Shown one piece after another: positions 36,698 through 59,931 of a stretch of 64,000 nt of DNA. The notes beneath the pieces were generated by a model that was not told the DNA's origin, did not search any database, and saw only the letters and a list, made by a program, of their open reading frames with translations. The stretch's first letter is position 1. The number at the start of each line of letters is the position of its first letter. The stretch is from Dehalococcoidia bacterium (GTDB lineage: Bacteria > Chloroflexota > Dehalococcoidia > Lucifugimonadales > UBA3495), in the NCBI GenBank assembly GCA_965204905.1, contig OZ242042.1, positions 1,282,778 to 1,346,777 of the forward strand, in the 5' to 3' direction. The translations under genes were made by a program, and so were the position numbers.

Positions 36698-39600
36698 TTG
36701 AACGCGCTCCGGTTCCGCATACCTGGCCCCCTGCGTCATTTGTGGGGGGCTAATTTTTTGCTGGTGGCGCTGCTGGCAGTTGCGTTGGCGTTGCGCCTTT
36801 ACGGGATCGACTGGGACCAGGGCCACGGGTTCCATCCCGATGAGCGGTCGTTCTATATGCGGGCCGGGGATATGCTGTGCCTGCTCACGGCCGGCCCGGA
36901 TACTGACGGCCCCTATTGCTCGGCGGCGCACCTCCGCTCTCTGCTGGCCGGCGATCAATTCCAGGGGATAGAGCCGGGGCTGCCCGATCTCCGAACTGCA
37001 CTGTCCGCCGAGCGCAGCCCGCTGAATCCCCGCTGGTTCCCCCTGGGCAGCGCGCTGATCTACGCTCTCGTCCTGCTGCGTACGTTGCTGGAACCGTTCG
37101 TAGATTGGGGCGTGATGGAGCTCAGATTCGCGGGGCGCACGCTGGCGGCGCTGGCCGACGTGGGTTCGGTGTGGCTGCTCTACCTCTTAGGCCGGCGCAT
37201 GTATGGGCCGTGGACGGGCATTTTGGCCGCTGCCTTCACCACCTTTGCGGTTATTCACATTCAGCACGCCCACTTTTACCGCCCTGAGCCATTTACGGTG
37301 TTGGCATCACTGGGTGCGTTGTGGGCTATGCTCCGTTTCATCGACTCAGGGCGGGCCCGCGACGCCGCGTTGTTGGGCGCGCTGGTGGGCCTGGCGATGG
37401 CGCCCAAGGTATCGGTCGCGCCGATTCTGGCGCCGCTTGTGCTCACGTTCCTGTGGGTGGCCAAGGACCGCGCCCAACGGGAGTGGACGCAGTTGAGGCC
37501 CGGCGACATCGCGCGTGTTGTCCCGGTGGCCGCGTTGGCTGGCGTGGCGGCCCTGGGGACGTTCTTCATCACCACGCCCTACGCTTTCCTGGACTTCGCC
37601 AATTTCATCGGCGACATACGCGAGCAGGCCGGCATGGCCGGCGAGGCCGGGCGGTTCCCGTTCACCTGGCAGTATGCTGACACGCCGGCTTTCCTGTACC
37701 AGATTCGTCAGACGGCGGTTTGGGGACTTGGTCTTCCGTTGGGCATAGCCGCGTGGGTGGCGGCTCCGGTGACTGCGTGGTTCGCCTGGCGCGGCGGCAT
37801 CACCCAACGCTCCGATCTGCTGCTTTTGGCATGGGCGGTGCCGGCTTTTGTGTTCCTGGAGTTGTTCGAGGTCAAGTTCCTGCGCTACGTGTTTCCGCTA
37901 ATGCCGTTCTACATCCTGATGGCGGCGCGGGTGCTGGTGGCTTTTGTGGCTTGGGCCAGAACTCGCCGGCTGCTGGTTGACGGGAGTCGTGAACCCCTGC
38001 CCGACGATGCGCCGTTCTCGGAGGAGTGGCACGCCACGCCGCCCACTGTGGGTGACGACCTGATCTTCGACGAACCGCTGTTTGGCGATGAACCCTTCGG
38101 CGACGCTCCCTTTTCGGAAGAGTGGCACGCTACTCCGCCGCTCGCCGGAGCATCGGTGTCTGCCGCGCCTATCGTGCCTGCTCCCCTTTCGCCGCCTGCT
38201 TACCGGCCTGGGCTCGCCGGGTTAATCGACCGTTGGGCCCTCCCAGCAGCGCTGACCACCCTGGTGCTTGTGCTCGCCGTGACCTTCCTCTACGCCGTGG
38301 CGTTTGTCGGTGTCTATGGCCGCACTCACACGGCCGTTGCTGCCTCGGATTGGATCAACGACAACGTTTCCCGCAATGCGTCCATCATCAACGGCGGTTC
38401 GTACTGGGATGAGCAGATACCCAACCTGCGCGGTTACGATCTCTGGACGTTCCCCGCCTATCACCCCGATCACGATCCCAACAAGATTCCCGAGTTGATT
38501 GAACGGCTGGCCGACTCCGACTATGTGATTTTCTACTCCAACCGCGCTTATGGTTCGGTGGCGCGTCTGCCCGATGAGTTTCCGCAGAGTTCCGCGTTCT
38601 ACCGGCTGTTGTTCTCGGGCGAACTGGGCTACCAACTGGAGCGGGCGTTTACGTCATACTCATCGTTGGCTGGCGTTCAGCTGCGGGACGATCCCTACGG
38701 GCGGGCCGGGCTGGCAACGCCACCCATCGCGTCGGGCGGCAACGACGGACAGCCGGACGGCATCGTAATCAACCTGGGGTACGCCGATGAGAACGTCATC
38801 GGGTACGACCATCCGCAAGTGTTGATATTTCGGAACGTGGAGCAGCTAGCGGAGCGGCAGATACGGAACAGTATCAACGCGGCAGCGGAGGCCGCTGCAT
38901 CAACCGACGCTCCCCTGATGCTGTCTCCGCCCGCGCTGGAGGCGCAGCGGTCGGGCGGGACCTGGTCGGAACTTTTCAACCGGGACGGTTGGGCCAATCG
39001 TGCGCCCTGGCTATCGTGGCTGTTGGTGATCGAGCTGATCTGCCTGGTTGCCTTCCCGTTCACCTGGTGGCTGATGCGACCGCTGCCCGACCGGGGCATC
39101 CTGTTCGCCCGGGTGTTGGGCTTGCTGCTGGTGGCCTGGGTGGCCTGGATGCTGGTGAACGTCGGCGTGTTGCGCTTTTCGGCGGGTACGGTGTGGGTGG
39201 CGATGTTCGTCGTTGCGATACCGTCCGCCGTTGTCCTCTGGCGACAATGGCGACCGATGGTTGATTGGCTGCGTGAAAAATGGCGGTTGGCACTCACTGC
39301 CGAGGCGTTATTTCTGCTGGCCTATCTCGCGTTCGTGCTGGTGCGCGCCGCCAACCCCGATCTGTGGCACCCGTGGCGCGGCGGCGAAAAGCCCATGGAG
39401 CTGGCTTACTTCACTGCGGTCGCGCGTTCTTCCGTGCTGCCGCCATACGATCCTTGGTTCAGTGGCGGTTATCTGAACTACTACTATTGGGGATATTTCA
39501 TCCTCTCGGTTCCCGTGCGGCTCACGGGCATCCCGCCGGCCACCGCGTTTAATGTTGCCGTGCCGCTGCTGTTTGCGCTGACGGCGACGGGGGTCGGTTC

Positions 39601-41485
39601 GCTGGTGTATAACCTGGTCGCCGCGGCACGCCGCCGTCAATCATCGGCTCCTTTCCCGCAATCGTTCTCCCCCGGCGGCGCTTGGATTCCGGCTTTCGCC
39701 GGAATGACGGTGAGGAGGATGGTCCGATGGTTTCCCGGCGGCGCAGCCGTCGCCGGACTTGCTGCTGCCCTCATGGCCACTGTGTCGGGCAATCTCGACG
39801 GCGTTGCGCAACTCGGCGAAATGGCGCAACGAAAATTGGACGGAATGGCCGCTCCACTGTCGAGTTTCGATTTCTGGCGCAGCAGCCGCGCAATCCCTGA
39901 AGTGCCCGAATTCGAGCCGTCCAGGCTCACGCCATGGCTCGAATCCGACAATTTAGTAGAAACGGCGTTTCACATCACAGAGTTCCCATTCTTCACCTTC
40001 CTCTTCGCCGACCTGCATGCCCACATGATGACCATGCCCTTTGCCGTACTTTCATTGGCGTTGGGATTCGCCTTGATTGCTGGTTTGAGCCGGGTGTCGT
40101 TGCGCGCCTTATGGCCCTGGGTTGTCGTTGTGATGCTTGCGCTGGCGGTGGGAAGTCTGTGGGCGATCAATTCGTGGGAGTACCCGGCCTACGCTCTGTT
40201 GATGCTCGGATGCGTCGTCGGCGCCGCGTGGATAATGCCGGGCCGGATCAGGATACGCCTGGCCGTCGCAGTCGCGTTGAGCCTGCTGACACTGGTGGTG
40301 AGCTATCTCGCTTTTCAACCGTTCCACGCCTCCAACGAGACCTTCGGAACCGGCATCGAACCCACCCGTTGGCGCACGCCCGTATACAACTACCTACTGA
40401 TCCACGCCTTGCCGCTGCTTGCGGCTGTGTGCCTGCTGTCCGCCACTTTGCCCCGCGCCATCGCTCCGGTCCTGGCGCGCGTGAAACGGCGCGAACCGCC
40501 GGTGGTTCTGGATCAATGGCTGTTGGTCGGCGCGGCCCTGGGTCTGATTCTGGTCTGCTACTTCTGGGCGGCAGGGTTTATCACCGTCGGATTCCTTGCC
40601 GTCGCGCTCACGCTAACGGCGTGGGCATTGCTCGCATCTCTGGCAGCCGAAGAATATCCCCAGCGTCGTGCCGACCTGATGGCGTTGGCGATGCTGGCAA
40701 TGGCCCTCGCTATCGGCATTGGCGTTGACCTGATTCGCGTCGAGGGCGACATCGCGCGGATGAACACGCTGTTCAAGTATTACCTGGTGGCGTGGCTGTT
40801 GTTCGCAGCGTCCGGCGCCTATGGGCTGTGGCGCGGCTGGACGTTCGCCAATAACGTGGGGGGGTTCGCGCGCAACACGCTCAGGTGGATGGCGGCTGGC
40901 GTCGTTCTGGCCATCTTTGCGGGAACTTTAGTCTATCCCGCGCTGGCTACTCCGGTTCGCATCGCCGACCGATTCAACCCCTTGCCGCCGACGCTGGACG
41001 GGGAAGTGTGGATGCCGGCCGCGGTGTATCATCCCCCGGACTGGTGCGCCGAACGGCCCCTGGAACCCATCGAACTGAAATGGGATTACGAGGCGATGCG
41101 TTGGCTTCAGGATAACGTCTCTGGGACGCCGGTCGTGCTGGAGGGACACGGCACTCAATACTGCTGGAACAGCCGCGTTGCGCAGTACACGGGTCTGCCC
41201 ACCGTTCTGGGCTGGCCCTGGCACCAGCAGCAGCAGCGCGGCGACGGCGAAATCGTACGCCGGCGCGCCCGGGACATAGAGACCATGTACAGCACGCCCA
41301 GCCACGACCGGGCGCTGGAGTTGCTGGAGGAATACGACGTTGAGTACATCGTCGTCGGGGCTTTGGAACGCGGCTACTACGGCGAGCGAGGAATCGCCAA
41401 GTTCGATGCCATGGTCGAAAAAGGTTCGTTGACCCTGGCCTACGGCAACGATGGCACGCGGGTCTATCAGGTTGCGGGCCGTTGA
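36698..41485 (+). CDS. giant polytopic membrane protein: GT-C/PMT-like N-terminal domain + DUF2298 (Chlor_Arch_YYY) domain
   Basis: 1595-aa ORF. GIDWDQGHGFHPDERSFYM near the N-terminus, dozens of TM segments, the signature GGYLNYYYWGYF (about 39466-39500), and a C-terminal soluble domain (LEEYDVEYIVVG). Confidence 0.85.
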   Translation: MNALRFRIPGPLRHLWGANFLLVALLAVALALRLYGIDWDQGHGFHPDERSFYMRAGDMLCLLTAGPDTDGPYCSAAHLRSLLAGDQFQGIEPGLPDLRTALSAERSPLNPRWFPLGSALIYALVLLRTLLEPFVDWGVMELRFAGRTLAALADVGSVWLLYLLGRRMYGPWTGILAAAFTTFAVIHIQHAHFYRPEPFTVLASLGALWAMLRFIDSGRARDAALLGALVGLAMAPKVSVAPILAPLVLTFLWVAKDRAQREWTQLRPGDIARVVPVAALAGVAALGTFFITTPYAFLDFANFIGDIREQAGMAGEAGRFPFTWQYADTPAFLYQIRQTAVWGLGLPLGIAAWVAAPVTAWFAWRGGITQRSDLLLLAWAVPAFVFLELFEVKFLRYVFPLMPFYILMAARVLVAFVAWARTRRLLVDGSREPLPDDAPFSEEWHATPPTVGDDLIFDEPLFGDEPFGDAPFSEEWHATPPLAGASVSAAPIVPAPLSPPAYRPGLAGLIDRWALPAALTTLVLVLAVTFLYAVAFVGVYGRTHTAVAASDWINDNVSRNASIINGGSYWDEQIPNLRGYDLWTFPAYHPDHDPNKIPELIERLADSDYVIFYSNRAYGSVARLPDEFPQSSAFYRLLFSGELGYQLERAFTSYSSLAGVQLRDDPYGRAGLATPPIASGGNDGQPDGIVINLGYADENVIGYDHPQVLIFRNVEQLAERQIRNSINAAAEAAASTDAPLMLSPPALEAQRSGGTWSELFNRDGWANRAPWLSWLLVIELICLVAFPFTWWLMRPLPDRGILFARVLGLLLVAWVAWMLVNVGVLRFSAGTVWVAMFVVAIPSAVVLWRQWRPMVDWLREKWRLALTAEALFLLAYLAFVLVRAANPDLWHPWRGGEKPMELAYFTAVARSSVLPPYDPWFSGGYLNYYYWGYFILSVPVRLTGIPPATAFNVAVPLLFALTATGVGSLVYNLVAAARRRQSSAPFPQSFSPGGAWIPAFAGMTVRRMVRWFPGGAAVAGLAAALMATVSGNLDGVAQLGEMAQRKLDGMAAPLSSFDFWRSSRAIPEVPEFEPSRLTPWLESDNLVETAFHITEFPFFTFLFADLHAHMMTMPFAVLSLALGFALIAGLSRVSLRALWPWVVVVMLALAVGSLWAINSWEYPAYALLMLGCVVGAAWIMPGRIRIRLAVAVALSLLTLVVSYLAFQPFHASNETFGTGIEPTRWRTPVYNYLLIHALPLLAAVCLLSATLPRAIAPVLARVKRREPPVVLDQWLLVGAALGLILVCYFWAAGFITVGFLAVALTLTAWALLASLAAEEYPQRRADLMALAMLAMALAIGIGVDLIRVEGDIARMNTLFKYYLVAWLLFAASGAYGLWRGWTFANNVGGFARNTLRWMAAGVVLAIFAGTLVYPALATPVRIADRFNPLPPTLDGEVWMPAAVYHPPDWCAERPLEPIELKWDYEAMRWLQDNVSGTPVVLEGHGTQYCWNSRVAQYTGLPTVLGWPWHQQQQRGDGEIVRRRARDIETMYSTPSHDRALELLEEYDVEYIVVGALERGYYGERGIAKFDAMVEKGSLTLAYGNDGTRVYQVAGR
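39686..39705. repeat. ATTCCGGC-TTTC-GCCGGAAT palindromic element lying in frame inside the DUF2298 CDS
   Basis: CTTGGATTCCGGCTTTCGCCGGAATGACGGTGAGG matches the intergenic copies at 26459 and 41547, with compensatory C/G stem changes. It is translated as AWIPAFAGMTVR. Confidence 0.75.
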
Positions 41486-42715: not shown

Positions 42716-42738
42716 ATCCACAGGAACAATCACGAAAC

Positions 42739-42767
42739 GTAGGGGCGGGTTTCAAACCCGCCCCTAC
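42739..42767. repeat. 29-nt perfect hairpin GTAGGGGCGGG-TTTCAAA-CCCGCCCCTAC between convergent genes
   Basis: 11-bp stem. A sister copy lies at 56700-56728 (GTAGGGGCAGG-TTTCAAA-CCTGCCCCTAC, compensatory change). Confidence 0.85.
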
Positions 42768-42792
42768 GAATTGGGCCAATCGTCGGCGTCGT

Positions 42793-43335
42793 TTACCTAT
42801 CCACCAGACACGCAATCGCCTGTGGCGCGGCCGTTGCCGCGCGTTCCGACAGTTCGGAGTCGTTGAGGGTGACGATGGGGTGCTCTACGATGGCCAAGCC
42901 GTACTCCGGGTCGCCGCGCATCCGGGACATGGCGTGCGCCTGGCTGATGAACGGACGGGTGGTCAGCACGGTTGAGGGGATGCCCAGCAGTTCGGTTTCC
43001 ATTGCGTCGTGCACACTGCACGCGGTGCAGGACCCTCATTCAGCCGTGGCGTGTATCGCTACGTCAATGCTCTTGGCGGTGCGTTGCAGGTCCTCAATGC
43101 GGGCCGGCCACTGCCAGCCGCCCTTGTTGTGCTCAACGGTGCCGGCGATGTCGTAACGCTCGCCGATGATGGCGGCGATACGTCGCAGCAGGTCTTCCGA
43201 GTGGGGCTTGTTGTTGGCGAACAAGCCGATTACCTTGCCGTCCAGAGTCGCCGGCCGTTGCGCCAGGCGCGCCGGAGCCTGCGGCCCGTCGTCGCGGGGG
43301 TCCAGCGTCACGATTGGTGAGTTCTGCATTGTCAT
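42793..43335 (-). CDS. UGSC-family protein, probable selenoprotein (Sec at the in-frame TGA 43036-43038)
   Basis: ORFs 43036..43380 and 42793..43014 are in the same frame, separated only by a TGA. Read-through gives ...SIDVAIHATAE-U-GSCTACSVHDAMETELLGIPSTVLTTRPF..., that is the U-G-S-C motif. Likely start MTMQNSP at 43335 (GAGGAG SD). Confidence 0.75.
43006..43033 (-). promoter_or_regulatory. candidate bacterial SECIS hairpin immediately 3' of UGA 43038-43036
   Basis: The mRNA reads UGAGG-GUCCUGCAC-CGCGUGCAGU-GUGCACGAC. Eight base pairs with one C.C mismatch and a 10-nt loop containing GU. Confidence 0.35.
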
Positions 43336-43392
43336 AGCATTTTCTCCTCGACGTGTAGTGACAATCCTGTTGCTCAGCATTTTTCCGGCCGC

Positions 43393-43689
43393 TCAATCCG
43401 CAACCGTTTCTTCGACCGCTCCTTGTTGCGACGGCTCTATGCCATGCTGTCGTAAAATGGCGTCCACGAAAGGCTTGAGCGCTCCTTGGGCGCCAATTAT
43501 GTGCATCCCAACGGCTAATGCGCCTGCACTGCCGGGGTCCTGATCATAGAACATCGCCACACCGTTGGCGATTGAATCGCCAAAAGCAGTATCCTCGCCA
43601 TTGGTGATGAACAGCACGTCTGCATCCGTGTCGTAGGTTACAGCGATATTTGGCAGGCCGGACTCCGGTTTCACTGATTTTGCGGCCAT
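43393..43689 (-). CDS. small DUF2283-like protein
   Basis: Start moved to ATG 43689 (GGAGG SD). IAVTYDTDADVLFITNG resembles the DUF2283 YDxExDxLYI motif. This is recall-based. Confidence 0.45.
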   Translation of the reverse strand: MAAKSVKPESGLPNIAVTYDTDADVLFITNGEDTAFGDSIANGVAMFYDQDPGSAGALAVGMHIIGAQGALKPFVDAILRQHGIEPSQQGAVEETVAD

Positions 43690-43767
43690 GGTCGTCCTCC
43701 AAATCGGTAGCCGGTCAAAAGCTCGCCGCAATCGCCCATTCTCGTCGCTGTGTTGGCTCATTTTACG

Positions 43768-44769
43768 CTAGCTCGGCACGTTCACCCGCCGAGTTACTGA
43801 CCGGCTGCTGCCCCAGGTGCTGATGAGGCTGACGAATCCGCCGGCCATGCCGCCGCCCGGCAGGACGGTGATGCGGTCGGCGTCGGCTACCACTGGGACC
43901 ATGCGGTCGTGGTCCAACTCGTGGCCCATGCGATGCCAGCGCATCCACTCGGCTACCGGGAGCTGGGCCTTTTCGTGCAGGAACTCCGCCACTCGCTGCC
44001 GCGACCAACCCGCCTCAGCGATGTGCAGCATGGCCTCCGGGCTAATGACGCAGATTACCTCCGGCATTCCGGGGCCGAAGGCCAGCATCGAGTGGGCCAC
44101 GGTGGTCAGAAAGTCCGCGGGATCCCGGTCGCCGTGCAGAGTGACCTGCAAGGGCCCCAAGGTGGCGTAGGCGGTCACTATCGTCGCGTCGTCGCCGTAG
44201 CCCAGTTCCGAGGCCAGCGACGGCCAGGGGCTGATCGCCAGGTTCTCGGGGAAGCAGAACGTGATCTTGCCGGGATGTCCGAAGGTGCTGTTGTCCATCA
44301 CCACCGGAACCGACCCGTAGAAGTTGGCCTTGAACAGGTTGACCGCCCGGCCGATAGCGGCGTTGGCCCGGCTGCCGTTGCCCATCATCTCGACACCACC
44401 GTTCATGCCGATGGCGTCGGCGTAGGGGCCGCTGACCACTGTCAGCACCGTTACGCCGTTGGTGGACGTGCTGCTGGCGTGCAGGTTGAACGAGCGGTCG
44501 GCGATGGCGGACAGGGATGCCAGCACCACCGGAAAGTGCTCGGGAGTGCAGCCGGCCATCACTGCGTTGACCGCCGCCTTGCCGGCCGTGAACCGCTTTT
44601 GCCGAATTACCTCGGTGCCCAGGTCGTGCTCGGCGGACACGCCGGCGTAGTCCAGCATCGCCTGCACCCGATCCTGGGTCGGCGGTACGATGGGCAGGCC
44701 GTCGGTGAGGCCGTTGTCAAAGTAGTAGTCCTGAGCGGCGCTCCAGTCGTCGAAACTATGTGTGGTCAT
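43768..44769 (-). CDS. conserved-looking hypothetical protein, family not recognised
   Basis: About 333 aa from MTTHSFDDWS. Globular and non-repetitive (GLTDGLPIVPPTQDRVQAMLDY, AVNAVMAGCTPEHFPVV, GNGSRANAAIGRAVNLF). First gene of the cassette ending in the UGSC gene. Confidence 0.6.
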   Translation of the reverse strand: MTTHSFDDWSAAQDYYFDNGLTDGLPIVPPTQDRVQAMLDYAGVSAEHDLGTEVIRQKRFTAGKAAVNAVMAGCTPEHFPVVLASLSAIADRSFNLHASSTSTNGVTVLTVVSGPYADAIGMNGGVEMMGNGSRANAAIGRAVNLFKANFYGSVPVVMDNSTFGHPGKITFCFPENLAISPWPSLASELGYGDDATIVTAYATLGPLQVTLHGDRDPADFLTTVAHSMLAFGPGMPEVICVISPEAMLHIAEAGWSRQRVAEFLHEKAQLPVAEWMRWHRMGHELDHDRMVPVVADADRITVLPGGGMAGGFVSLISTWGSSRSVTRRVNVPS

Positions 44770-44826
44770 AAAGTAAAGCTCTCTCAAAATGGATTGGCGG
44801 TTCAGATTATGCCAGCATTTGGTTGC

Positions 44827-44856
44827 AGGGGCGAATAATCATTTGCCCCTACGCAT
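44827..44856. repeat. AGGGGC-GAATAATCATTT-GCCCCT(ACGC) hairpin element overlapping the 3' end of the DnaC-like CDS
   Basis: Stem 44827-44832 / 44845-44850. The DnaC-like stop (44839-44841) lies in the loop, and the last residues (MRRGK) are encoded by the element. Confidence 0.7.
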
Positions 44857-46254
44857 TGCGCCGCCCTGCCGGTAATCGGGCGCTTCTATCGGCCACTCGG
44901 TCACTACCAGAGGGTCTTGCAGGCGGGACGCGATGCGTGGGCGGGTGGCAGCGATGTCCTCGATCCTGTGGGAGGTTGTGATGATGGTCGGGAGCCGTTC
45001 CTCGTATCGATAGCCTACTATCTGGAACAGTTTGTCCTCGGCGAAAGGAGTGCTGCGTTCGGCTCCCATGTCGTCCAGCACCAAGACGTTGGCGGTCCTG
45101 ATACGATCCAGCAGGTCCTCGTGGGCTATTGGACTATCCGGGGCGAAAGCGGCACGCAAGTAATCGAGCAAATCCGCCACGGTCGCAAAAAATACTTCGT
45201 CGCCCCGGTCTTCGCGCTCGGCGGCGGCGGCCACCGCCAGGTGGGTTTTCCCTACACCAAACGGCCCGTGCAGGCTCAGCCATCCGTTGGGTTGGTTAGC
45301 CCAACGCTGCACGTAGGATTTTGCCGAGCTAAGGCTGCGTATTTCGTGCGCCGCCAGATCACCGTTGCCTTCCGGGTTGAAAGCCTCAAACGTCATACGC
45401 TGTCGCATACTAGTTGGAATCATTCCCATCGTGCGTCCGATAGCGCTGTTGACGCGGCCCAGGCGGTAAATGCGCCCGAAACCGTCGGCAGATTCCATGC
45501 GCGTCAGCAAGAACTCGTCAAGGCGATTCGGATCTCCTCGTAGTGTGATCACCGTCGGCAATCTTTGTGAATGGCGCCACGCTAACAGCTGGAACAGCCG
45601 CTCTTGTCCCCACGGACTGGCAGGACGGGCCGGCAAGTCGTCCAATACCAGCAAATCGGCCTGACGCACCTGCTCGAAAAGGTCGATGAATCCTAACTCC
45701 GAGTCATCGTCAAAACCACCGCGCAGATAGTCCAGCAGGTCAGTGGAGGTTATGAACAGCGCAGCCTTGCCGTTGTCGATGCGCCGGTTGACGATGGCGG
45801 CGGCCAGGTACGTTTTTCCGCTGCCGCTGGGCCCGACGAAAGTTATCCAGCCTTGTGGATCTGCGGCGAATTCGCGCGCCGCCTGAAACGCGCTGACAAA
45901 CGCGGCCCGGTTGGCTGATTCGTTATTCGGGCCGTTGGGATCGCTGTTGGCAAAGGTCCATTGGCGCAGGGCTCCCAGGTTGCTGTACCGTTCCAACGCC
46001 GCCACGCGCCTGGCCCGGTCAGTATCGGACTCCTGGCACTGGCACGGAACCGCTTTGCCAAAATCGGGATGCTCAACCGGCGTTCTCGACGCGAGCCAGC
46101 CGGCGCCGCCGCATACGTTGCAACTGTCAGCCGCCGTTTCCGTCCGGGACGTTGTCAGGCTCCCAAGGTAGCCGTCCGTATCGGCGTCGATAGCTCTCCA
46201 GGTACCCTGTGCGGCGATCCGGCGCAGTATCGTGCCCAAGCTCTCCATCGTCAT
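44839..46254 (-). CDS. DnaC/DnaI/IstB-like helicase-loader ATPase with two tandem AAA+ modules and an N-terminal Cys4 motif
   Basis: 471-aa ORF. CNVCGGAGW...VPCQC; Walker A GPSGSGKTYLAAAI plus Walker B LLVLDDL; then a second Walker A GPFGVGKTHLAVAA plus Walker B VLVLDDMG. Confidence 0.75.
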   Translation of the reverse strand: MTMESLGTILRRIAAQGTWRAIDADTDGYLGSLTTSRTETAADSCNVCGGAGWLASRTPVEHPDFGKAVPCQCQESDTDRARRVAALERYSNLGALRQWTFANSDPNGPNNESANRAAFVSAFQAAREFAADPQGWITFVGPSGSGKTYLAAAIVNRRIDNGKAALFITSTDLLDYLRGGFDDDSELGFIDLFEQVRQADLLVLDDLPARPASPWGQERLFQLLAWRHSQRLPTVITLRGDPNRLDEFLLTRMESADGFGRIYRLGRVNSAIGRTMGMIPTSMRQRMTFEAFNPEGNGDLAAHEIRSLSSAKSYVQRWANQPNGWLSLHGPFGVGKTHLAVAAAAEREDRGDEVFFATVADLLDYLRAAFAPDSPIAHEDLLDRIRTANVLVLDDMGAERSTPFAEDKLFQIVGYRYEERLPTIITTSHRIEDIAATRPRIASRLQDPLVVTEWPIEAPDYRQGGAMRRGK

Positions 46255-46954
46255 GGCGTCTTTCTCTTGGCTGCGCCACTATCTCAGGTGAGGCGCTGGG
46301 TTTGCCTTCTTGCAGCCACCGCCGCAGGATAGCATGAACGTAACCCCAGCTACGCACGTTTTGGTTGTTGGCAATCTCAAAAGCTTCTTCAATCCAGCTG
46401 GCCGGATATTCTTCTTCGGCGGCCTTGAGCTGTTCCGCCGCGCCGTGTCCGAACGTGCCGATGTGCTGCTCGTACAGGGAGAATATATTAGCACGGGACG
46501 CGCTGCGTTTCGCCGGCTTGACGAACTCGGAATCCGTTGCTTCGTTTGCGTCTGCCACGCCAATGTCGGATGCTTTCAGCGGCGCTAATCCCGTCTTAAC
46601 CAGGTATTCCTGTACCCGTTCGTCGTTACTCAGCAACCGCACGTCGCCAGCCACCCTGACGGCGACCAGCGTTTCCCGCCGCAACGCTCCGGCCAACGCC
46701 CTCCGGATGTTATCGTCGCTGCCCAACCCGGCCGCCCGTCGCAGCGTCCCGTCGTCCAGCAAGGCATCAAGTGACAGCGACGGCGGCAGCCCCCTTCGCG
46801 TGGGCTCTGCCGCAAGTAACCCAACCGTGCGCAGCGTTACCTTCAGTTCGCCGGGATCGTCTATCTCCGCCAGCCATTGGTCCAGGGCGGCGGCCGGCAC
46901 CGGTATCCGCCGGGCTTCTCTCGGCAGTGGTGGCCTGCGCCCGGGCTGCGTCAT
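46127..46954 (-). CDS. DnaD-domain (DnaB_2) replication initiation/primosome protein
   Basis: 275-aa ORF. FSLYEQHIGTFGHGAAEQLKAAEEEYPASWIEEAFEIANNQNVRSWGYVHAILRRWLQEG is a DnaD C-terminal domain pattern. The start abuts the dnaB stop. Confidence 0.65.
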   Translation of the reverse strand: MTQPGRRPPLPREARRIPVPAAALDQWLAEIDDPGELKVTLRTVGLLAAEPTRRGLPPSLSLDALLDDGTLRRAAGLGSDDNIRRALAGALRRETLVAVRVAGDVRLLSNDERVQEYLVKTGLAPLKASDIGVADANEATDSEFVKPAKRSASRANIFSLYEQHIGTFGHGAAEQLKAAEEEYPASWIEEAFEIANNQNVRSWGYVHAILRRWLQEGKPSASPEIVAQPRERRHDDGELGHDTAPDRRTGYLESYRRRYGRLPWEPDNVPDGNGG

Positions 46955-48340
46955 CTACGCCACCGATTCTTCGTAGCGCATCAACTCGTCAAATCGCATC
47001 AGGGTGTCGCGGAAGTACAGGTGGAGGCTGCCAGTTGGGCCGTGCCGGTGCTTGGCTACGATAAGTTCCGCGATGTTGCGGGGGTACGGACGACCCGGGG
47101 CGTGCTGCTCCCATTCGTCCTCCGTGAAGTTTCGGTCTTCCCGGTAGATGAACATAACCACGTCGGCGTCTTGCTCGATGCTGCCGCTGTCGCGCAGGTC
47201 GGACAATTGCGGGCGATGGCCCGGCCGGTTCTCCACCACGCGGCTCAGCTGGGAGCAGGTGAAAACCGGAACTTCCAGGTCCCTGGCCACGGCCTTTAGC
47301 GACCGCGAAATCTCGCTGATTTCCTGGACCCGGTTTTCGCCGTATCCGCGCCGGCTGCCCTGTCCCTGCGCCAGTTGGAGGTAGTCCACCACCAGGAAGT
47401 CCAAGCCGTGCTCCAGTTTCAGCCGCTGCGCCTTGCTGCGCATTTCCATGGCAGTCTGGAACGGGGTGTCGTCAATAAAGATGGGCAGGCCGGAAAGCAC
47501 ACCCACCGCGTTGGCGATGACGCTCTCTTCCTGCTCCGACAGCAAGCCCAGGCGCAGCCGGTGGGAATCCACGCCCGACTCGGCCACCAATATGCGCATC
47601 GCCACCTGTTCCCGGCTCATCTCCAGGCTGAAAATCCCGCACACCTGACCGCTCTTGGCGGCGTTCACGCAGATGTTCAACGCCAGGCTGCTTTTGCCGA
47701 GGCCGGGCCTCGCGCCCACGATCAGCAGATCCGACCGTTGCATCCCGCCCAGCAGGCTGTCCAGGTCGCTGTAGCCGCTTTGCAGGGGCGGCATGTCGGT
47801 CAGTGAAACGTCGCCGATGTCCCCCTGGAGGTACACGTCCAGTACCGAGCTCAACGGAATGAAGCCCCGCTCGGTGTTCGCCGGCTGCACGCTGAACAGG
47901 ACGTCCACCGCTTGCCGCATAGCGTCCTCGGCATCGTCCGAGTCCTCGAATCCGATCTCGGCAATTCGATTGCCGGCCGCAATGATGCGCCGCTTGGCGG
48001 CGGTGTCGGCCACGATGCCGGCGTAATACTCCACGTTGACCGACGTGGGGGTATCGGCGATCAACTGCCCCAAGTAAGGCAGGCCACCCACCTCTTCCAG
48101 CCGGTTCCGTTGCTGCAACTCCCGCGCTACCGTGATCTGGTCAACGGCCTCGCCTCTTTGGGACACCGAGACGCAGGCGTCAAAGCAGAACTGATTGCGC
48201 GCCCGGTGAAAATCCTCCGCCTTGATCAGGGGCAGCACCCGGTGCAGGGCCTCGCCGTCAATCAGCAATCCCCCTAGAACCGCCGCCTCTGCGTCGAGGT
48301 CGTGCGGAGGTTGTCGCTCGATGTACTGGGCGACGACCAC
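46955..48340 (-). CDS. dnaB: replicative DNA helicase
   Basis: 461-aa ORF. PPHDLDAEAAVLGGLL, Walker A GARPGLGKSS, FLVVDYLQL, SQLSR. No intein. Confidence 0.96.
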   Translation of the reverse strand: MVVAQYIERQPPHDLDAEAAVLGGLLIDGEALHRVLPLIKAEDFHRARNQFCFDACVSVSQRGEAVDQITVARELQQRNRLEEVGGLPYLGQLIADTPTSVNVEYYAGIVADTAAKRRIIAAGNRIAEIGFEDSDDAEDAMRQAVDVLFSVQPANTERGFIPLSSVLDVYLQGDIGDVSLTDMPPLQSGYSDLDSLLGGMQRSDLLIVGARPGLGKSSLALNICVNAAKSGQVCGIFSLEMSREQVAMRILVAESGVDSHRLRLGLLSEQEESVIANAVGVLSGLPIFIDDTPFQTAMEMRSKAQRLKLEHGLDFLVVDYLQLAQGQGSRRGYGENRVQEISEISRSLKAVARDLEVPVFTCSQLSRVVENRPGHRPQLSDLRDSGSIEQDADVVMFIYREDRNFTEDEWEQHAPGRPYPRNIAELIVAKHRHGPTGSLHLYFRDTLMRFDELMRYEESVA

Positions 48341-48346
48341 GGGTGT

Positions 48347-48802
48347 TTACTCCTCGATGGACGCGATCACGTTCACCGTGGCCCTGATTTCGCTGGACAG
48401 GTTGAGGACCACTTCGTACTCGCCCGGCTCGCGGATCGGCTCCACCGAGTTGGTGATCCTGCGGTCGATATCGCGGTCAAGCAGTTCGCCCAGGGCATCG
48501 GCGATGCGAATGCCGCTGATCGCGCCGTAGTACCGGCCGGTGGGCGTAACCCGGCCCTCGATGGTCACGGTGAGGTTGTCCAGAGCCTCTGCCAGTTCTT
48601 CGACCACCTGGGTGTCCCGCGCCCGTTCTGCATCCCCGGCCGCCTTCACCTTGTCCAGGCGTTTCATGGTTTCGTCGGTGGCGATTTCAGCCAACCCCTT
48701 GGGCAGCAGGTAGTTACGGGCGTATCCCCGGGAAACCCGTCGCACCTCGCCGGCGCGGGCCTTGTCGGGAACGTCCTTCAAAAACAACATCATCATAGTC
48801 AT
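48347..48802 (-). CDS. rplI: 50S ribosomal protein L9
   Basis: Start moved to ATG 48802 (GAGAGG SD). MTMMMLFLKDVPDKARAGEVRRVSRGYARNYLLPKGLA is a typical L9 N-domain. Confidence 0.9.
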   Translation of the reverse strand: MTMMMLFLKDVPDKARAGEVRRVSRGYARNYLLPKGLAEIATDETMKRLDKVKAAGDAERARDTQVVEELAEALDNLTVTIEGRVTPTGRYYGAISGIRIADALGELLDRDIDRRITNSVEPIREPGEYEVVLNLSSEIRATVNVIASIEE

Positions 48803-48851
48803 TTGGAGCCTCTCGTTGCATCCGGCCCGGAGTTGCCAGCCGCCGGACTTT

Positions 48852-49046
48852 CTAATTTGTCGATAGTGGGTGTGGTCTGGATTCCGTAGCAGAATTCGCT
48901 GAGGCGATGGCTTGCAGTTTTGCCTCACCCGTCATGCCCGGATTGGCTAGAATCGCGGCGATGATTCGTTGTCTTTCACTGGCGCGACCATCCTCGAAGC
49001 CTTCGGCATACCATTTTCTCGGGTAGTGCAGGGCAAAATCCATCAT
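48852..49046 (-). CDS. hypothetical small protein, paralogous to the C-terminal half of 49067..49552
   Basis: MMDFALHYPRKWYAEGFEDGR...QRIIAAILANPGMTGEAKLQAI parallels MIDFALGRRREWREEGIEQGR...QRAIAAISADSELSDTAKLRAI. Confidence 0.35.
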   Translation of the reverse strand: MMDFALHYPRKWYAEGFEDGRASERQRIIAAILANPGMTGEAKLQAIASANSATESRPHPLSTN

Positions 49047-56118: not shown

Positions 56119-56703
56119 ATGACGCAACCCAAAGCAAAGCCGCGTACCAAGTTGACCAACGCGGACTATATGGCGATGACGCCGCCGGCGAACACGGGGC
56201 CGCGCTACCAACTTATCAACGGGGAGCTGATTCAGATGGCCGGAGCTAGTGACGCTCATCAAGTGTTCCTGATGTGGTTGTGCTCGGCACTGATGTCGCA
56301 GGTGTATGCTTTGGTCATAGGCGAAATCCGCATTGCCGCATACGACGTACACGTTGACCCTTTCAACACTTTCCAGCCCGACCTGCTGTACGTGTCCAAC
56401 GAACGGCAACACATTTTCAACGTCGATGGCCGCGGCATTACCGGCGCGCCGGACGTGGTAGTGGAGATATTGTCTGAGTCCACCCGGCGGCGGGATCTCA
56501 GCGAGAAGTTGCCCGTTTATCTCAACGCCGGCGTCAAGGAAGTCTGGGTTGTCGATCTGGATGCCGCCACAGTGGCAATCCACTCTGGAGATGCCATGAC
56601 TCCTGTGGCTGTGTTTGCCGCTGAGGATACACTGACCTCGGATGCGATGCCCGGTGTTGCAATTGAGTTGGCGCCAATTTTCGCACGCGCAGTTGGCGTG
56701 TAG
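56119..56703 (+). CDS. Uma2-family (DUF820) PD-(D/E)xK nuclease-fold protein
   Basis: YQLINGELIQM...QPDLLYV...APDVVVEILSEST...KLPVYLNAGVKEVWVVD...MPGVAIELAPIF. Confidence 0.8.
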   Translation: MTQPKAKPRTKLTNADYMAMTPPANTGPRYQLINGELIQMAGASDAHQVFLMWLCSALMSQVYALVIGEIRIAAYDVHVDPFNTFQPDLLYVSNERQHIFNVDGRGITGAPDVVVEILSESTRRRDLSEKLPVYLNAGVKEVWVVDLDAATVAIHSGDAMTPVAVFAAEDTLTSDAMPGVAIELAPIFARAVGV

Positions 56704-56728
56704 GGGCAGGTTTCAAACCTGCCCCTAC
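56700..56728. repeat. 29-nt perfect hairpin GTAGGGGCAGG-TTTCAAA-CCTGCCCCTAC between convergent genes
   Basis: Overlaps the Uma2 stop codon and ends 2 nt before the lgt stop. Sister of 42739-42767. Confidence 0.85.
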
Positions 56729-59364: not shown

Positions 59365-59931
59365 AGAACGGAAAAAGTGGCCGAGCACCTCCCGTTGACT
59401 ACAGCCTGGGGGCATATCGTCGGGACTGGCTCAGGCCAGGCGCTCCCACGGCGCCCGCGGGACATCGCTTACCGTTGCTGCCGTCAAGCCCTGGCGGAGT
59501 TCACGAGCCTGCGCCGCGTGGGACCCGGCCGTCAACGCCACTCCCTGGGAAATTGGCCCTTGCGCCTTGCCGAGGGGAGGAATTCCACCCCGCTGTGGCG
59601 GGTTGCGGGTATAGGGCACCGCCAGCTCCCCGTGTAGCACGACCACTGCAAACATGGTATGCGGGCATGGGCTGGGTGTCAAACGCCGGCGGCGCCGGGC
59701 GATTGTTCAGAGTTGGGGTACTCCGGTCACGGGGCAGACTGTTCTTGTGCGGAATGATGATTTGGGTCAGCGGGTGGTTTTGGGGTTCCTCCGATTTGAG
59801 CGATTGGGTTTTGGGATTTTTCGGTGTCAGGTTGGTGGTTCGGGTCGAGTGTCGGAGCACGGCCAACACTATTTTTTTGCAGAGTTTGCGTCCTAGATTT
59901 CCACGTGCTGGCCGTTGCCCCGCTCCGCCGG

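What the first reader, a model, noticed from the sequence alone, without database searches (positions are those of the whole stretch)
42793..44787. Compact three-gene cassette: unassigned 333-aa protein, DUF2283-like protein, UGSC selenoprotein
Three co-directional genes are separated by 78 nt (43690-43767) and 57 nt (43336-43392) when the adjusted starts are used. With the longer ORF-track starts the gaps are only 6 nt and 12 nt. The cassette is bounded upstream by a hairpin repeat (44827-44856) and downstream by the 29-nt hairpin at 42739-42767. I cannot place the first protein (MTTHSFDDWSAAQDYYFDNGLTDGLPIVPPTQDRV...AVNAVMAGCTPEHFPVV...GNGSRANAAIGRAVNLF...) in any family I know. As far as I know the biochemical role of UGSC proteins is also unknown. 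Tight linkage of an unknown enzyme-sized protein to a Sec-containing redox protein suggests an undescribed redox or small-molecule-processing module. This is the best candidate for a novel system in the window.
Basis: inference. Interest (0 to 1): 0.7.

Follow-up and report, generated by a model that had tools for sequence, protein, structure and literature searches.

The report
UGSC selenoprotein with its obligate partner
The window carries a selenium-containing protein of long-unknown function (UGSC) next to an unnamed 333-residue protein that accompanies it, or is fused to it, in bacteria from many phyla, so the two almost certainly work as one redox enzyme, while the small gene between them is a recent insertion.

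Summary
Three minus-strand genes lie at the stated coordinates, and the third is a UGSC selenoprotein with an in-frame TGA. The functional unit, however, is two genes, not three.

- **UGSC to partner:** 78 of 80 UGSC loci in reference genomes have a homologue of the 333-aa protein ('A') just upstream.
- **Partner to UGSC:** 70 of 80 diverse metagenomic A loci have UGSC adjacent. Seven of the ten exceptions have under 600 nt of flank.
- **Fusions:** A and UGSC are fused in both orders. Some A proteins also carry an N-terminal CxxC redoxin domain.
- **No third partner:** no other neighbouring gene family recurs.
- **Middle gene:** it is found in only 2 of those 80 loci and is absent from the closest relative. 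It scores below the DUF2283 threshold. Its longer ORF start is a remnant of a deleted upstream gene.
- **Sec evidence:** TGA is present in about 154 of 155 copies, and a covarying SECIS hairpin follows it.
- **Family A:** at least 5,579 clusters, no Pfam or NCBIfam model, no convincing PDB structural neighbour, and two near-invariant cysteines.

My best reading is a self-contained two-subunit selenol/thiol oxidoreductase with an unknown substrate. UGSC is already catalogued, and a UGSC fusion to an unnamed domain was noted in 2008. This is therefore a typical member of a known but uncharacterised family.

The parts
43768..44769 (-). Gene A: 333-aa protein of an unnamed family, the conserved partner of UGSC. 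Key motifs are TDGLPxxPPT, MAGC (Cys74), the (S/T)T dyad in HASSTSTNG, RANAAIGRA, D-x-x-T-x-G-x-PGK-x-x-C (Cys172)-x-x-E, and a GGG loop.
   Evidence: ORF and translation. Exact sequence in the public collection. No Pfam, NCBIfam or PDB sequence hit. The family has 5,579 representatives at E<=1e-3. Conserved columns. AF2 model with pLDDT 83.
43705..43761 (-). The first ~19 codons (MSQHSDENGRLRRAFDRLP) of a ~106-aa ORF that is intact in relatives. Here an ~80-codon deletion fuses it in frame to the leader of gene B. It is the source of the 'longer ORF-track start'.
   Evidence: DNA alignment with L014 and L041. Intact ORF at L014 5345-5665 and fused 204-aa ORF in L041. The 122-aa form is not in the public collection.
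43393..43689 (-). Gene B: a 98-aa lineage-restricted small protein inserted into the A-UGSC spacer. It is not part of the conserved module and its resemblance to DUF2283 is only sub-threshold.
   Evidence: Pfam DUF2283 at 13.3 bits against a cut-off of 23. Present in 2/80 related loci. Absent from L008, L012 and L010. The 98-aa form is in the public collection.
42793..43335 (-). UGSC family selenoprotein, 180 residues including Sec100, with stop at 42793-42795.
   Evidence: Read-through translation. Pfam PF24696 at 143 bits. NCBIfam NF041046 at 109 bits. The frame is conserved past the TGA in homologues.
43036..43038 (-). In-frame TGA read as selenocysteine (AE-U-GSC).
   Evidence: TGA at this position in 85/85 close loci. 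It is also TGA in all but one (L158, TGC) of about 70 divergent loci.
43005..43025 (-). SECIS-type stem-loop, 14-34 nt from the U of UGA. The core stem is CGUGCA/UGCACG, and the apical triloop is GUG with invariant G and U.
   Evidence: Synonymous-site entropy is about 0 for codons +2 to +9. RNAalifold consensus over 132 distinct sequences. Covariation score 0.203 against 0.072 for shuffles (0/500), with compensatory CG<->GC at pair 21-27.
42738..42768 (.). Perfect palindrome with 15-nt arms, 25 nt after the UGSC stop. It is probably a transcript-end or REP-like element and marks the downstream boundary of the unit.
   Evidence: A second copy at 56700-56728 carries a compensatory change.
44827..44856 (-). 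Weak hairpin (AGGGGC...GCCCCU) that overlaps the stop codon of the upstream DnaC/IstB-like gene. It separates that gene from A.
   Evidence: Sequence read. Upstream gene annotated. Not returned by the repeat finder at a minimum of 8 nt.

Best explanation
**Proposal.** Genes A and UGSC encode the two subunits of one self-contained selenol/thiol-dependent oxidoreductase. In some lineages they are a single fused polypeptide.

**Roles of the parts.**
- A is the substrate-binding, catalytic subunit. Its fold has no close solved relative. Its pocket is built from the family's near-invariant residues: Asp23, Cys74, the (S/T)Thr103 dyad, Arg141, Asp159, Lys168, Cys172 and Glu175.
- UGSC is a flavodoxin-like alpha/beta domain. 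Its selenocysteine sits at the N-cap of a helix in a U-G-S-C motif.

**Catalytic cycle (inferred).** The selenolate delivers reducing equivalents to A's cysteine(s) or directly to the bound substrate. It is trapped as a Se-S bond with its own Cys103. A thioredoxin-type dithiol then re-reduces it; in some lineages that dithiol is a CxxC redoxin domain fused to A.

**Sec decoding.** UGA is decoded as Sec through a short SECIS hairpin 14-34 nt downstream.

**Gene B.** It is a recent passenger insertion, originally a two-gene insert whose first gene has been deleted here, and it plays no part.

**What is shown.** Obligate linkage and fusion, Sec decoding signals, fold class, the position of the motif, the conserved cysteines, and the absence of any conserved third partner.

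**What is inferred.** Physical complex formation for the unfused proteins, the direction of electron flow, and reductase chemistry. The substrate is unknown.
For: **Linkage.**
- 78/80 UGSC loci in GTDB representative genomes have A upstream on the same strand, 68 of them with a spacer of 160 nt or less.
- 70/80 diverse metagenomic A loci (38-55% identical to the query) have UGSC adjacent on the same strand. Seven of the ten exceptions have under 600 nt of downstream flank.
- 6/6 looked-up divergent A genes are followed by a UGSC gene split at the TGA, with unrelated flanking genes. They include MAGs labelled SAR202, Tectimicrobiota, Alphaproteobacteria and Dormibacteraeota.

**Fusions.**
- UGSC-A (P0171, P0184, P0192, P0247, P0260).
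- A-UGSC (P0141, and P0395-P0402 among others).
- Sec-interrupted fusions (P0142).

**Redox partner domains.**
- AhpC-TSA/Redoxin CxxC domains are fused to A (P0258 61 bits, P0215 46 bits).
- In L142, L154, L162 and L163 such a fusion is followed by a Sec-UGSC gene.

**No third partner.** In 129 nearest-neighbour ORFs, the commonest Pfam family appears only 5 times.

**Structure.**
- The fusion model has pLDDT 92.9 and pTM 0.93.
- The Sec-equivalent Cys107 lies between strand 99-105 and helix 108-123.
- The UGSC domain matches flavodoxin-like folds.

**Conserved cysteines in A.** Cys74 and Cys172 are at least 90% conserved in three independent alignments.

**Sec decoding.** TGA in 85/85 plus about 69/70 loci. 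Synonymous-site suppression and a covarying hairpin follow it.

**Gene B is dispensable**.
Against: - No biochemical data exist for either family, and the reviews list UGSC as uncharacterised (PMC13188914).
- I could not obtain model coordinates, so the distance between the U/C motif and A's cysteines is untested.
- Three UGSC-A fusions (P0171, P0184, P0247) have lost the U/CxxC motif yet keep both A cysteines. In those proteins the UGSC domain cannot be a redox donor.
- Sec is almost never replaced by Cys (about 154 of 155 here; 255 against 21 in GOS, PMC2398784). That is unusual for a simple disulfide-exchange partner. It fits better with Sec acting as the catalytic nucleophile or as a metal ligand.
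- Two UGSC loci (L044, L045) lack A within 6 kb, and three A loci with enough flank lack UGSC.
Confidence: 0.6

Rival explanations
1. This would be an enzyme of the glycine-reductase or D-proline-reductase type. Sec of UGSC would itself be the catalytic nucleophile. It would attack a carbon (or other electrophilic atom) of a substrate held and activated by A, form a Se-C adduct, and be resolved by the neighbouring Cys. That gives reductive C-N, C-S or C-O cleavage. A would play the role of GrdE/PrdA, and UGSC that of GrdB/PrdB.
For: - The two-subunit architecture pairs a UxxC selenoprotein with an 'enzyme-sized' partner.
- Sec is nearly obligatory, as it is in GrdA/GrdB/PrdB (255 Sec against 21 Cys in PMC2398784).
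- The only non-UGSC NCBIfam hit places the Sec region on the Sec region of GrdB (TIGR01917, residues 89-133 against 336-379).
- Some loci sit next to CoA-transferase, acyl-CoA synthetase and TRAP-transporter genes.
Against: - The GrdB hit is noise-level: 11.6 bits against a cut-off of 602, E = 0.09.
- There is no PF07355 or PF09338 hit.
- A shows no recognisable self-cleaving pyruvoyl site, and Cys74 sits between two helices in a confident region of the model.
- Fusions that lost the UxxC motif still exist.
- The neighbourhood is not consistently catabolic.
Confidence: 0.2
2. A metal or iron-sulfur centre would be shared between the subunits. The two conserved cysteines of A, plus Sec and Cys of UGSC, would ligate a metal or cluster at the interface. 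The enzyme would then be a metallo-(seleno)enzyme, for example a hydro-lyase or a redox enzyme, rather than a dithiol/selenol relay.
For: - Four conserved chalcogen ligands are available in total: 2 in A and U+C in UGSC.
- The consistent, though weak, top Foldseek group for A alone is class I (Fe-S) fumarate hydratase, with 10 of the top 14 hits.
- One UGSC (L087) carries a C-terminal NifU-like domain.
- Sec as a metal ligand is rarely replaceable by Cys. This is established for formate dehydrogenase and [NiFeSe] hydrogenase, and I cite it from general knowledge.
Against: - The Foldseek matches are not significant: E >= 5.5e-3, TM <= 0.36. They disappear with the better model.
- Fumarate-hydratase-type clusters need three Cys from one chain, and A has two.
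- CxxC redoxin domains fused to A point to thiol-disulfide chemistry.
Confidence: 0.1
3. The three genes A, B and UGSC would form one functional operon in which the small middle protein is a required component, such as an adaptor, chaperone or regulator.
For: - The three genes are co-directional and tightly spaced.
- B is conserved at 81-92% identity in L014 and L041 at the same position.
Against: - B is absent from 78 of the 80 related loci, from all 84 divergent loci, and from the nearest relative L008 (99% identical A, 46-nt spacer).
- Where B is present, it comes with a second ORF that has been deleted in the window.
- The A-UGSC spacer also carries other insertions of 438-3031 nt in other genomes.
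Confidence: 0.03

Closest known systems
UGSC-containing selenoprotein family (Pfam PF24696; NCBIfam NF041046; Zhang & Gladyshev, PMC2398784, PMC1976440)
   Same: The third gene is a bona fide member. It has a strong Pfam match, the U-G-S-C motif with in-frame TGA, and a SECIS hairpin. It also uses Sec almost exclusively, as reported for GOS (255 Sec against 21 Cys). A fusion of UGSC to an unnamed conserved domain ('Unknown_1') was reported in 2008 and is probably family A.
   Different: - The literature treats UGSC as a stand-alone protein, 'likely Trx-like fold', of unknown function. Here it appears as one half of a near-obligate two-gene or fused unit.
- Its predicted fold is flavodoxin-like, not thioredoxin-like.
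- I could not confirm that Unknown_1 is family A, because Figure S1A is held only as an image.
Glycine/sarcosine/betaine reductase protein B (GrdB+GrdE) and D-proline reductase (PrdB+PrdA)
   Same: - A UxxC selenoprotein subunit is paired with a larger substrate-binding subunit encoded next to it.
- Sec is rarely replaced by Cys.
- Re-reduction is by a thioredoxin-type system. That step is established for glycine reductase and only inferred here.
   Different: - There is no detectable homology: 11.6 bits against 602 for TIGR01917, and no PF07355 or PF09338 hit.
- There is no evidence of a pyruvoyl-forming cleavage in A.
- The module occurs mainly in aerobic or microaerobic environmental lineages (SAR202/Dehalococcoidia, NC10, Tectimicrobiota, soil and marine metagenomes) and not in Stickland fermenters.
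- There are no GrdA/C/D-like partners nearby.
Reductases with dedicated or fused thiol-disulfide partner domains (e.g. MsrA/MsrB-thioredoxin fusions, AhpC with the AhpF N-terminal domain, ArsC with glutaredoxin)
   Same: - A catalytic protein with conserved cysteines is recycled by a CxxC/UxxC domain.
- That domain may be encoded next to it or fused to it, in variable order.
- The genomic context is portable and independent of surrounding genes.
   Different: - The catalytic domain (A) belongs to no known reductase family and has no PDB structural neighbour.
- The recycling partner is a flavodoxin-like selenoprotein rather than a thioredoxin-fold protein.

Membership tests
UGSC family (Pfam PF24696 / NCBIfam NF041046) | Score above Pfam's gathering cut-off over the full-length model | tested here: met
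   143 bits against a cut-off of 25; residues 11-178 match model positions 3-171 of 172.
UGSC family (Pfam PF24696 / NCBIfam NF041046) | Score above the NCBIfam equivalog cut-off | tested here: inconclusive
   109 bits against a cut-off of 125, E = 2e-31, with full model coverage 1-146/147. Sec had to be written as Cys. This is a naming threshold and does not indicate lack of homology.
UGSC family (Pfam PF24696 / NCBIfam NF041046) | U-G-S-C motif with an in-frame TGA and a conserved reading frame beyond it | tested here: met
   AE-TGA-GSC at 43036-43038. TGA in 85/85 close loci. The C-terminal half is conserved in homologues.
Bacterial selenoprotein gene (SECIS-dependent UGA recoding) | Stem-loop just 3' of UGA with G/U in the apical loop, maintained at the RNA level | tested here: met
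   The hairpin spans positions 14-34 after the U of UGA, and loop positions G23 and U24 are invariant. Synonymous entropy is about 0 for codons +2 to +9. Covariation is 0.203 against 0.072 for shuffles (0/500), with CG<->GC swaps. No Rfam family reached its gathering score here.
Bacterial selenoprotein gene (SECIS-dependent UGA recoding) | Sec machinery (selA, selB, selD, tRNA-Sec) present in the genome | not testable with these tools
   No tRNA is found in the 64-kb window, and the rest of the genome is not available.
DUF2283 (PF10049), for gene B | Score above Pfam's gathering cut-off | tested here: not met
   13.3 bits against 23, E = 0.095, with only 18 of 49 model positions matched. The L014 orthologue gives no hit.
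GrdB/PrdB selenoprotein B family (PF07355, TIGR01917), for UGSC | Significant match to the family models | tested here: not met
   TIGR01917 scores 11.6 bits against 602. There is no PF07355 hit at E<=0.1.
Thioredoxin-fold oxidoreductases, for UGSC (the literature's suggestion) | Thioredoxin fold | tested here: not met
   The best Foldseek matches of the UGSC domain are flavodoxin-like alpha/beta sandwiches: the GH3 C-terminal domain at E = 4e-4, plus MdaB, flavorubredoxin and NQO1. No thioredoxin-fold protein is among the top 50. The match is on a homologue's model (P0192), not on the window protein itself.
Class I (Fe-S) fumarate hydratase / Fe-S hydro-lyase alpha domain, for A | Same fold, and three cluster-ligating cysteines | tested here: not met
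   The best Foldseek match has E = 5.5e-3 and TM 0.28-0.36, and it is absent with the higher-confidence model. Only two cysteines are conserved. No Pfam Fumerase hit.
Any curated protein family, for A | Match to Pfam-A, NCBIfam or a PDB sequence | tested here: not met
   The window protein was tested. Fifty-nine diverse members were tested. No family recurs.

The most novel reading that the evidence does not exclude
A plus UGSC would be a previously unrecognised class of selenoenzyme. Its catalytic subunit would have a new fold. Its chemistry would truly require selenium, which would explain why Sec is almost never replaced by Cys. It would carry out a so-far-unassigned reduction that is common in aerobic marine, freshwater and soil bacteria. 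That would finally give a function to one of the most abundant marine selenoprotein families.
Probability: 0.45. Interest if true: 0.8.

Novelty: new member of a known kind. Interest (0 to 1): 0.58.

Why it matters
UGSC-containing proteins make up about 8% of all selenoprotein genes in marine metagenomes (PMC9402790). They have been listed as 'function unknown' from 2007 to 2026 (PMC1976440, PMC13188914).

If UGSC is essentially always encoded with, or fused to, one specific unnamed protein family, the problem changes. An orphan small redox protein becomes a defined two-subunit enzyme that can be co-expressed, modelled and assayed.

Three further points follow:
- A large protein family (at least 5,579 clusters at 50% identity) has no Pfam or NCBIfam model and deserves one.
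- Gene callers split UGSC at the TGA and label both halves 'hypothetical' in every locus examined.
- The SECIS hairpin visibly constrains the protein sequence. Cys/His and Gly/Leu at codons +6 and +9 change together with the base pair.

Tried and rejected
**Family A against curated libraries.** Pfam and NCBIfam scans found nothing, for the window protein or for 59 diverse members at E<=1. An HMM profile search against PDB sequences returned only a chance hit.

**Structure searches for A.**
- Foldseek on the A-only model gave no hit below 1e-3. Weak matches to fumarate hydratase, Toblerone-fold amidohydrolases, IRG1 and SelD have TM <= 0.36.
- With the high-confidence fusion model, only the UGSC domain found neighbours.
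- I therefore dropped the SelD-like (selenium metabolism) and Fe-S hydro-lyase ideas as primary explanations.

**Search for a third conserved partner.** A Pfam census of 129 nearest neighbours found none.

**Identity of 'Unknown_1'.** I tried to confirm that the 2008 domain is family A. The figure is held only as an image, and motif searches of the stored supplements found nothing.

**Toxin-antitoxin idea for gene B.** I suspected that B and its upstream ORF in relatives form a DUF4258/DUF2283 toxin-antitoxin pair. Pfam gives no support for either protein, so this remains only a recollection-based lead.

**Single-sequence folding for the SECIS.** Folding the window's region alone was uninformative: z = +0.8 and competing hairpins. 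The comparative analysis was needed to see the signal.

**Promoter and terminator scans.** These found nothing above the shuffled expectation.

**Redoxin domain as a substitute for UGSC.** I first read the redoxin-A fusions as a non-homologous replacement of UGSC. I rejected this because such fusions still have a Sec-UGSC gene downstream.
Full report
**1. What is in the window**

Three genes lie on the minus strand between 42793 and 44787, exactly as described.
- Gene A runs from ATG 44769 to TAG 43768-43770 and encodes 333 aa.
- Gene B runs from ATG 43689 to 43393 and encodes 98 aa. A longer ORF starts at 43761.
- The third gene runs from ATG 43335 to 42793. It contains an in-frame TGA at 43036-43038, in the context ...HATAE-U-GSCTACSVHD....

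Read through the TGA, the third gene gives a 180-residue protein. It matches Pfam UGSC (PF24696) at 143 bits against a cut-off of 25. It matches NCBIfam NF041046 at 109 bits, just under that model's cut-off of 125.

The stated spacers of 78/57 nt and 6/12 nt are correct. The public protein collection holds the exact 333-aa A, the 98-aa B and the 99-aa N-terminal half of UGSC, but not the 122-aa B. The 'adjusted' starts are therefore the ones to use.

The surrounding genes are unrelated.
- Downstream and convergent is a GFO/IDH/MocA oxidoreductase.
- Upstream are a DnaC/IstB-like double ATPase, a DnaD-like protein, the DnaB helicase and ribosomal protein L9.

A perfect 15+15-nt palindrome follows the UGSC stop at 42738-42768. 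The closest relatives are Dehalococcoidia, SAR202 and other Chloroflexota MAGs, several of them from sponge metagenomes.

**2. The selenocysteine codon is real**

TGA occupies the motif position in the window and in all 84 loci I had fetched at that point. In about 70 much more divergent loci it is TGA in all but one; L158 has TGC. The reading frame stays conserved beyond it.

Across 82 distinct sequences, the synonymous-site entropy of codons +2 to +9 after the UGA is 0-0.17, with one codon at 0.9. Comparable codons elsewhere in the gene score about 1.0-1.8.

RNAalifold on 132 distinct sequences predicts one hairpin, at positions 17-22/26-31 after the U of UGA. I then tested a 9-pair helix (columns 14-22/26-34) on an alignment of 91 sequences.
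- 88.8% of cells are paired, against 80.8% in shuffles (0/500 shuffles reach this).
- The covariation score is 0.203, against 0.072 in shuffles (0/500) and 0.086 or less when the partners are slid.
- Pair 21-27 shows true compensatory swaps (CG in 76 sequences, GC in 12).
- Pair 19-29 switches between UA (63), GU (23), AU and CG.
- Loop positions G23 and U24 are invariant.

These RNA swaps change the protein. TGC...CAC (Cys...His) alternates with GGC...CTC (Gly...Leu), so the SECIS constrains the amino-acid sequence. In window coordinates the helix is 43005-43025 on the minus strand.

**3. The functional unit is two genes, A and UGSC**

A scan of one genome per GTDB species with a UGSC profile found 242 relatives, and the best 80 were kept. 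All are Dehalococcoidia, SAR202 or other Chloroflexota, 66-94% identical to the window's UGSC.
- 78 of the 80 have an A homologue upstream on the same strand.
- 68 of those have a spacer of 160 nt or less.

The reverse test used a profile of 59 divergent A proteins against metagenome contigs. It returned 80 loci from many environments, 38-55% identical to the query.
- 70 carry UGSC adjacent on the same strand: 56 downstream, 12 upstream and 2 on both sides.
- Seven of the ten negatives have under 600 nt of downstream flank.
- Only three (L123, L147, L156) have room and lack UGSC.

I also looked up six individual divergent A genes, among them MAGs labelled SAR202, Tectimicrobiota, Alphaproteobacteria and Dormibacteraeota. 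All six are followed at once by a UGSC gene that gene callers had split at the TGA. The flanking genes are completely different in each case.

A Pfam census of the 129 nearest flanking ORFs found no recurring family. The commonest, alpha/beta hydrolase, appears in 5 of 129.

**4. Fusions**

An exhaustive profile search found 5,579 cluster representatives of family A at E<=1e-3. Many are longer than 400 residues.
- UGSC-A fusions exist, for example P0171, P0184, P0192, P0247 and P0260.
- A-UGSC fusions exist that end at the Sec codon, for example P0141, and P0395-P0402 from NC10/Methylomirabilis-type bacteria.
- P0142 begins just after the Sec codon.
- Tandem A-A proteins of about 715-740 aa also occur, P0124 and P0131.

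Another set has an N-terminal AhpC-TSA/Redoxin-type CxxC domain fused to A: P0258 at 61 bits, P0215 at 46 bits, and P0185. In L142, L154, L162 and L163 such a redoxin-A fusion is itself followed by a Sec-UGSC gene. The redoxin domain is therefore an added third redox element and not a substitute for UGSC.

One UGSC (L087) carries a C-terminal NifU-like domain.

In L044, one of the two UGSC loci without A, UGSC lies about 1 kb downstream of a glutaredoxin-like plus thioredoxin-reductase-like ORF. I assigned those two domains by reading the sequence, not with a tool.

**5. What the proteins look like**

Family A has no Pfam or NCBIfam model. I tested the window protein and 59 diverse members. 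It has no relative among PDB sequences.

The AF2 model of the window protein is fair: pLDDT 83, pTM 0.85. Its two least confident loops coincide with the most conserved motifs, HASSTSTNG and MDNSTFGHPGK. Foldseek against the PDB finds nothing below E = 1e-3. The recurrent but weak top group is class I fumarate hydratase, with TM 0.28-0.36.

A model of the natural fusion P0192, built on 43 sequences, is very confident: pLDDT 92.9, pTM 0.93.
- Its only meaningful PDB neighbours cover the UGSC domain. They are flavodoxin-like alpha/beta sandwiches: the GH3 C-terminal domain at E = 4e-4, plus MdaB, flavorubredoxin, NQO1 and azoreductase.
- UGSC is therefore not thioredoxin-fold, as had been guessed in 2008.
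- The Sec-equivalent Cys107 sits between strand 99-105 and helix 108-123. That places it at the helix N-cap, with the second Cys one turn later, which is the classic geometry of a redox-active CxxC.

Across three alignments of increasing divergence, the near-invariant residues of A are as follows (window numbering):
- D23-G-L-P and P29/P30-T
- the A-G-C74 motif
- the (S/T)-T103 dyad
- G114-P
- R-A-N-A-x-I-G-R141-A
- D159, G164, P-G-K168
- C172-x-x-E175
- P-W182
- a C-terminal GGG loop

Both cysteines are at least 90% conserved everywhere.

**6. The middle gene**

B occurs at this position in only two of the 80 related loci, L014 and L041. It occurs in none of the 84 divergent loci. The closest relative, L008, has 99% identical A and only a 46-nt A-UGSC spacer.

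In L014 and L041, B is preceded by a 106-aa ORF. In the window that ORF has lost about 80 internal codons. Its first 19 codons (MSQHSDENGRLRRAFDRLP) are now fused in frame to B's leader. This is what creates the '122-aa ORF' and the apparent 6-nt spacer.

B scores 13.3 bits against DUF2283, below the cut-off of 23. Its former neighbour has no Pfam hit.

Other genomes carry unrelated insertions of 0.4-3 kb in the same spacer. B is therefore a passenger in an insertion-prone spacer and not part of the module.

**7. How it most likely works**

I commit to the following, at about 0.6 confidence. A and UGSC form one self-contained oxidoreductase.
- A binds the substrate and supplies the conserved Cys74/Cys172 pocket.
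- The UGSC selenolate reduces A or the bound substrate.
- It is captured as a selenenyl-sulfide with Cys103.
- A thioredoxin-type dithiol recycles it. In some lineages that dithiol is fused to A.

What is shown: the linkage, the fusions, the Sec decoding signals, the fold class, the position of the motif, the conserved cysteines, and the absence of a third partner. What is inferred: the complex between unfused subunits, the direction of electron flow, and the type of reaction. The substrate is unknown.

The variable genomic context fits a stand-alone repair or detoxification type of reductase at least as well as a step in a catabolic pathway.

Two observations sit uneasily with a mere 'recycling' role for UGSC.
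- Sec is almost never replaced by Cys.
- Some fusions (P0171, P0184, P0247) have lost the U/CxxC motif but keep A's cysteines.

The first of these favours the rival in which Sec is the catalytic nucleophile, as in glycine or proline reductase (about 0.2). It also allows the rival in which Sec is a metal ligand at the subunit interface (about 0.1).

**8. Comparison with what is known**

UGSC-containing protein is a catalogued selenoprotein family. It was first seen in Hyphomonas neptunium and in ocean metagenomes. It is among the five most abundant selenoprotein families in GOS, at 8.2% of selenoprotein genes. It has no assigned domain or function (PMC1976440, PMC2398784, PMC9402790, PMC9312934, PMC13188914).

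[quoted passage not shown] This is very probably family A, but I could not verify it. None of the eight or nine papers in the library that mention UGSC describes the systematic two-gene linkage.

The window's locus is thus a typical member of a known but uncharacterised family. What is new in this analysis is the strength and breadth of the A-UGSC coupling, the fold assignment, the SECIS definition, and the exclusion of the middle gene.

**9. Verdict**

For novelty I rate it a new member of a known kind. Interest is moderate to fairly high. The locus itself is ordinary for its clade, but the pairing makes a question that has been open for about 20 years directly testable: what does UGSC do?

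Noticed in passing
window 42738-42768 and 56700-56728: Two copies of a 29-31-nt perfect palindrome: GTAGGGGCGGGTTTCAAACCCGCCCCTAC and GTAGGGGCAGGTTTCAAACCTGCCCCTAC. They differ by a compensatory G/C to A/T change in the stem. This looks like a REP-like or terminator element family.
   Followed up: partly
window 43705-43761; L014 5345-5665; L041 2740-3354: The A-UGSC spacer is an insertion hotspot. In L014 and L041 it holds a two-ORF insert (a 106-aa ORF plus B), and in L041 the two are fused into one 204-aa ORF. In the window the first ORF is reduced to 19 codons. Other genomes have 0.4-3 kb of unrelated DNA there. I suspected a small toxin-antitoxin-like pair, but Pfam gives no support.
   Followed up: partly
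alignment A7 (codons +6 and +9 after the UGA), e.g. L086 6377-6436 against window 42976-43038: The SECIS stem forces amino-acid covariation in the protein. Cys...His (UGC...CAC) alternates with Gly...Leu (GGC...CUC), Trp...His (UGG...CAC paired with UCC) and others, each keeping the base pair.
   Followed up: yes
L087 6044-6919: A UGSC selenoprotein carries an extra C-terminal NifU-like domain with a CxxC motif (CMEC). It sits in a locus with CoA-transferase, TRAP transporter, IclR regulator and acyl-CoA dehydrogenase genes.
   Followed up: no
L044 3820-5043 and 6001-6540; L045: Two Dehalococcoidia genomes keep UGSC but have no A within 6 kb. In L044 the gene upstream of UGSC is a glutaredoxin-like (WCPDC) plus thioredoxin-reductase-like fusion. 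I assigned those domains by reading the sequence, not by a family search. The downstream GFO/IDH/MocA gene is the same as in the window.
   Followed up: partly
P0124 (717 aa), P0131 (741 aa), P0135, P0137, P0158, P0174: Proteins of about 710-740 aa consist of two tandem A domains and have no UGSC domain. Their neighbourhoods were not examined.
   Followed up: no
P0171, P0184, P0247: These UGSC-A fusion proteins have lost both redox residues of the UGSC motif (for example ...ADIGAAMSW...). The two conserved cysteines of the A domain are retained.
   Followed up: no
window 44839-46254 (-), 46127-46954 (-), 46955-48340 (-), 48347-48928 (-): A replication gene cluster sits upstream of the module. 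It has a 471-aa protein with two IstB/DnaC-like AAA+ domains and an N-terminal Cys-rich segment, then a DnaD/DnaB_2-like protein, the DnaB helicase and ribosomal protein L9. A duplicated helicase-loader ATPase is unusual.
   Followed up: no
window 36698-41485 (+): A 1,595-aa membrane protein combines PMT_2 (glycosyltransferase family 39-like) and DUF2298 domains.
   Followed up: no
window 59381-59642 (-): Bacterial large SRP RNA, 138 bits. It is the only Rfam family above its gathering score in the window. No tRNA genes are found in 64 kb.
   Followed up: no
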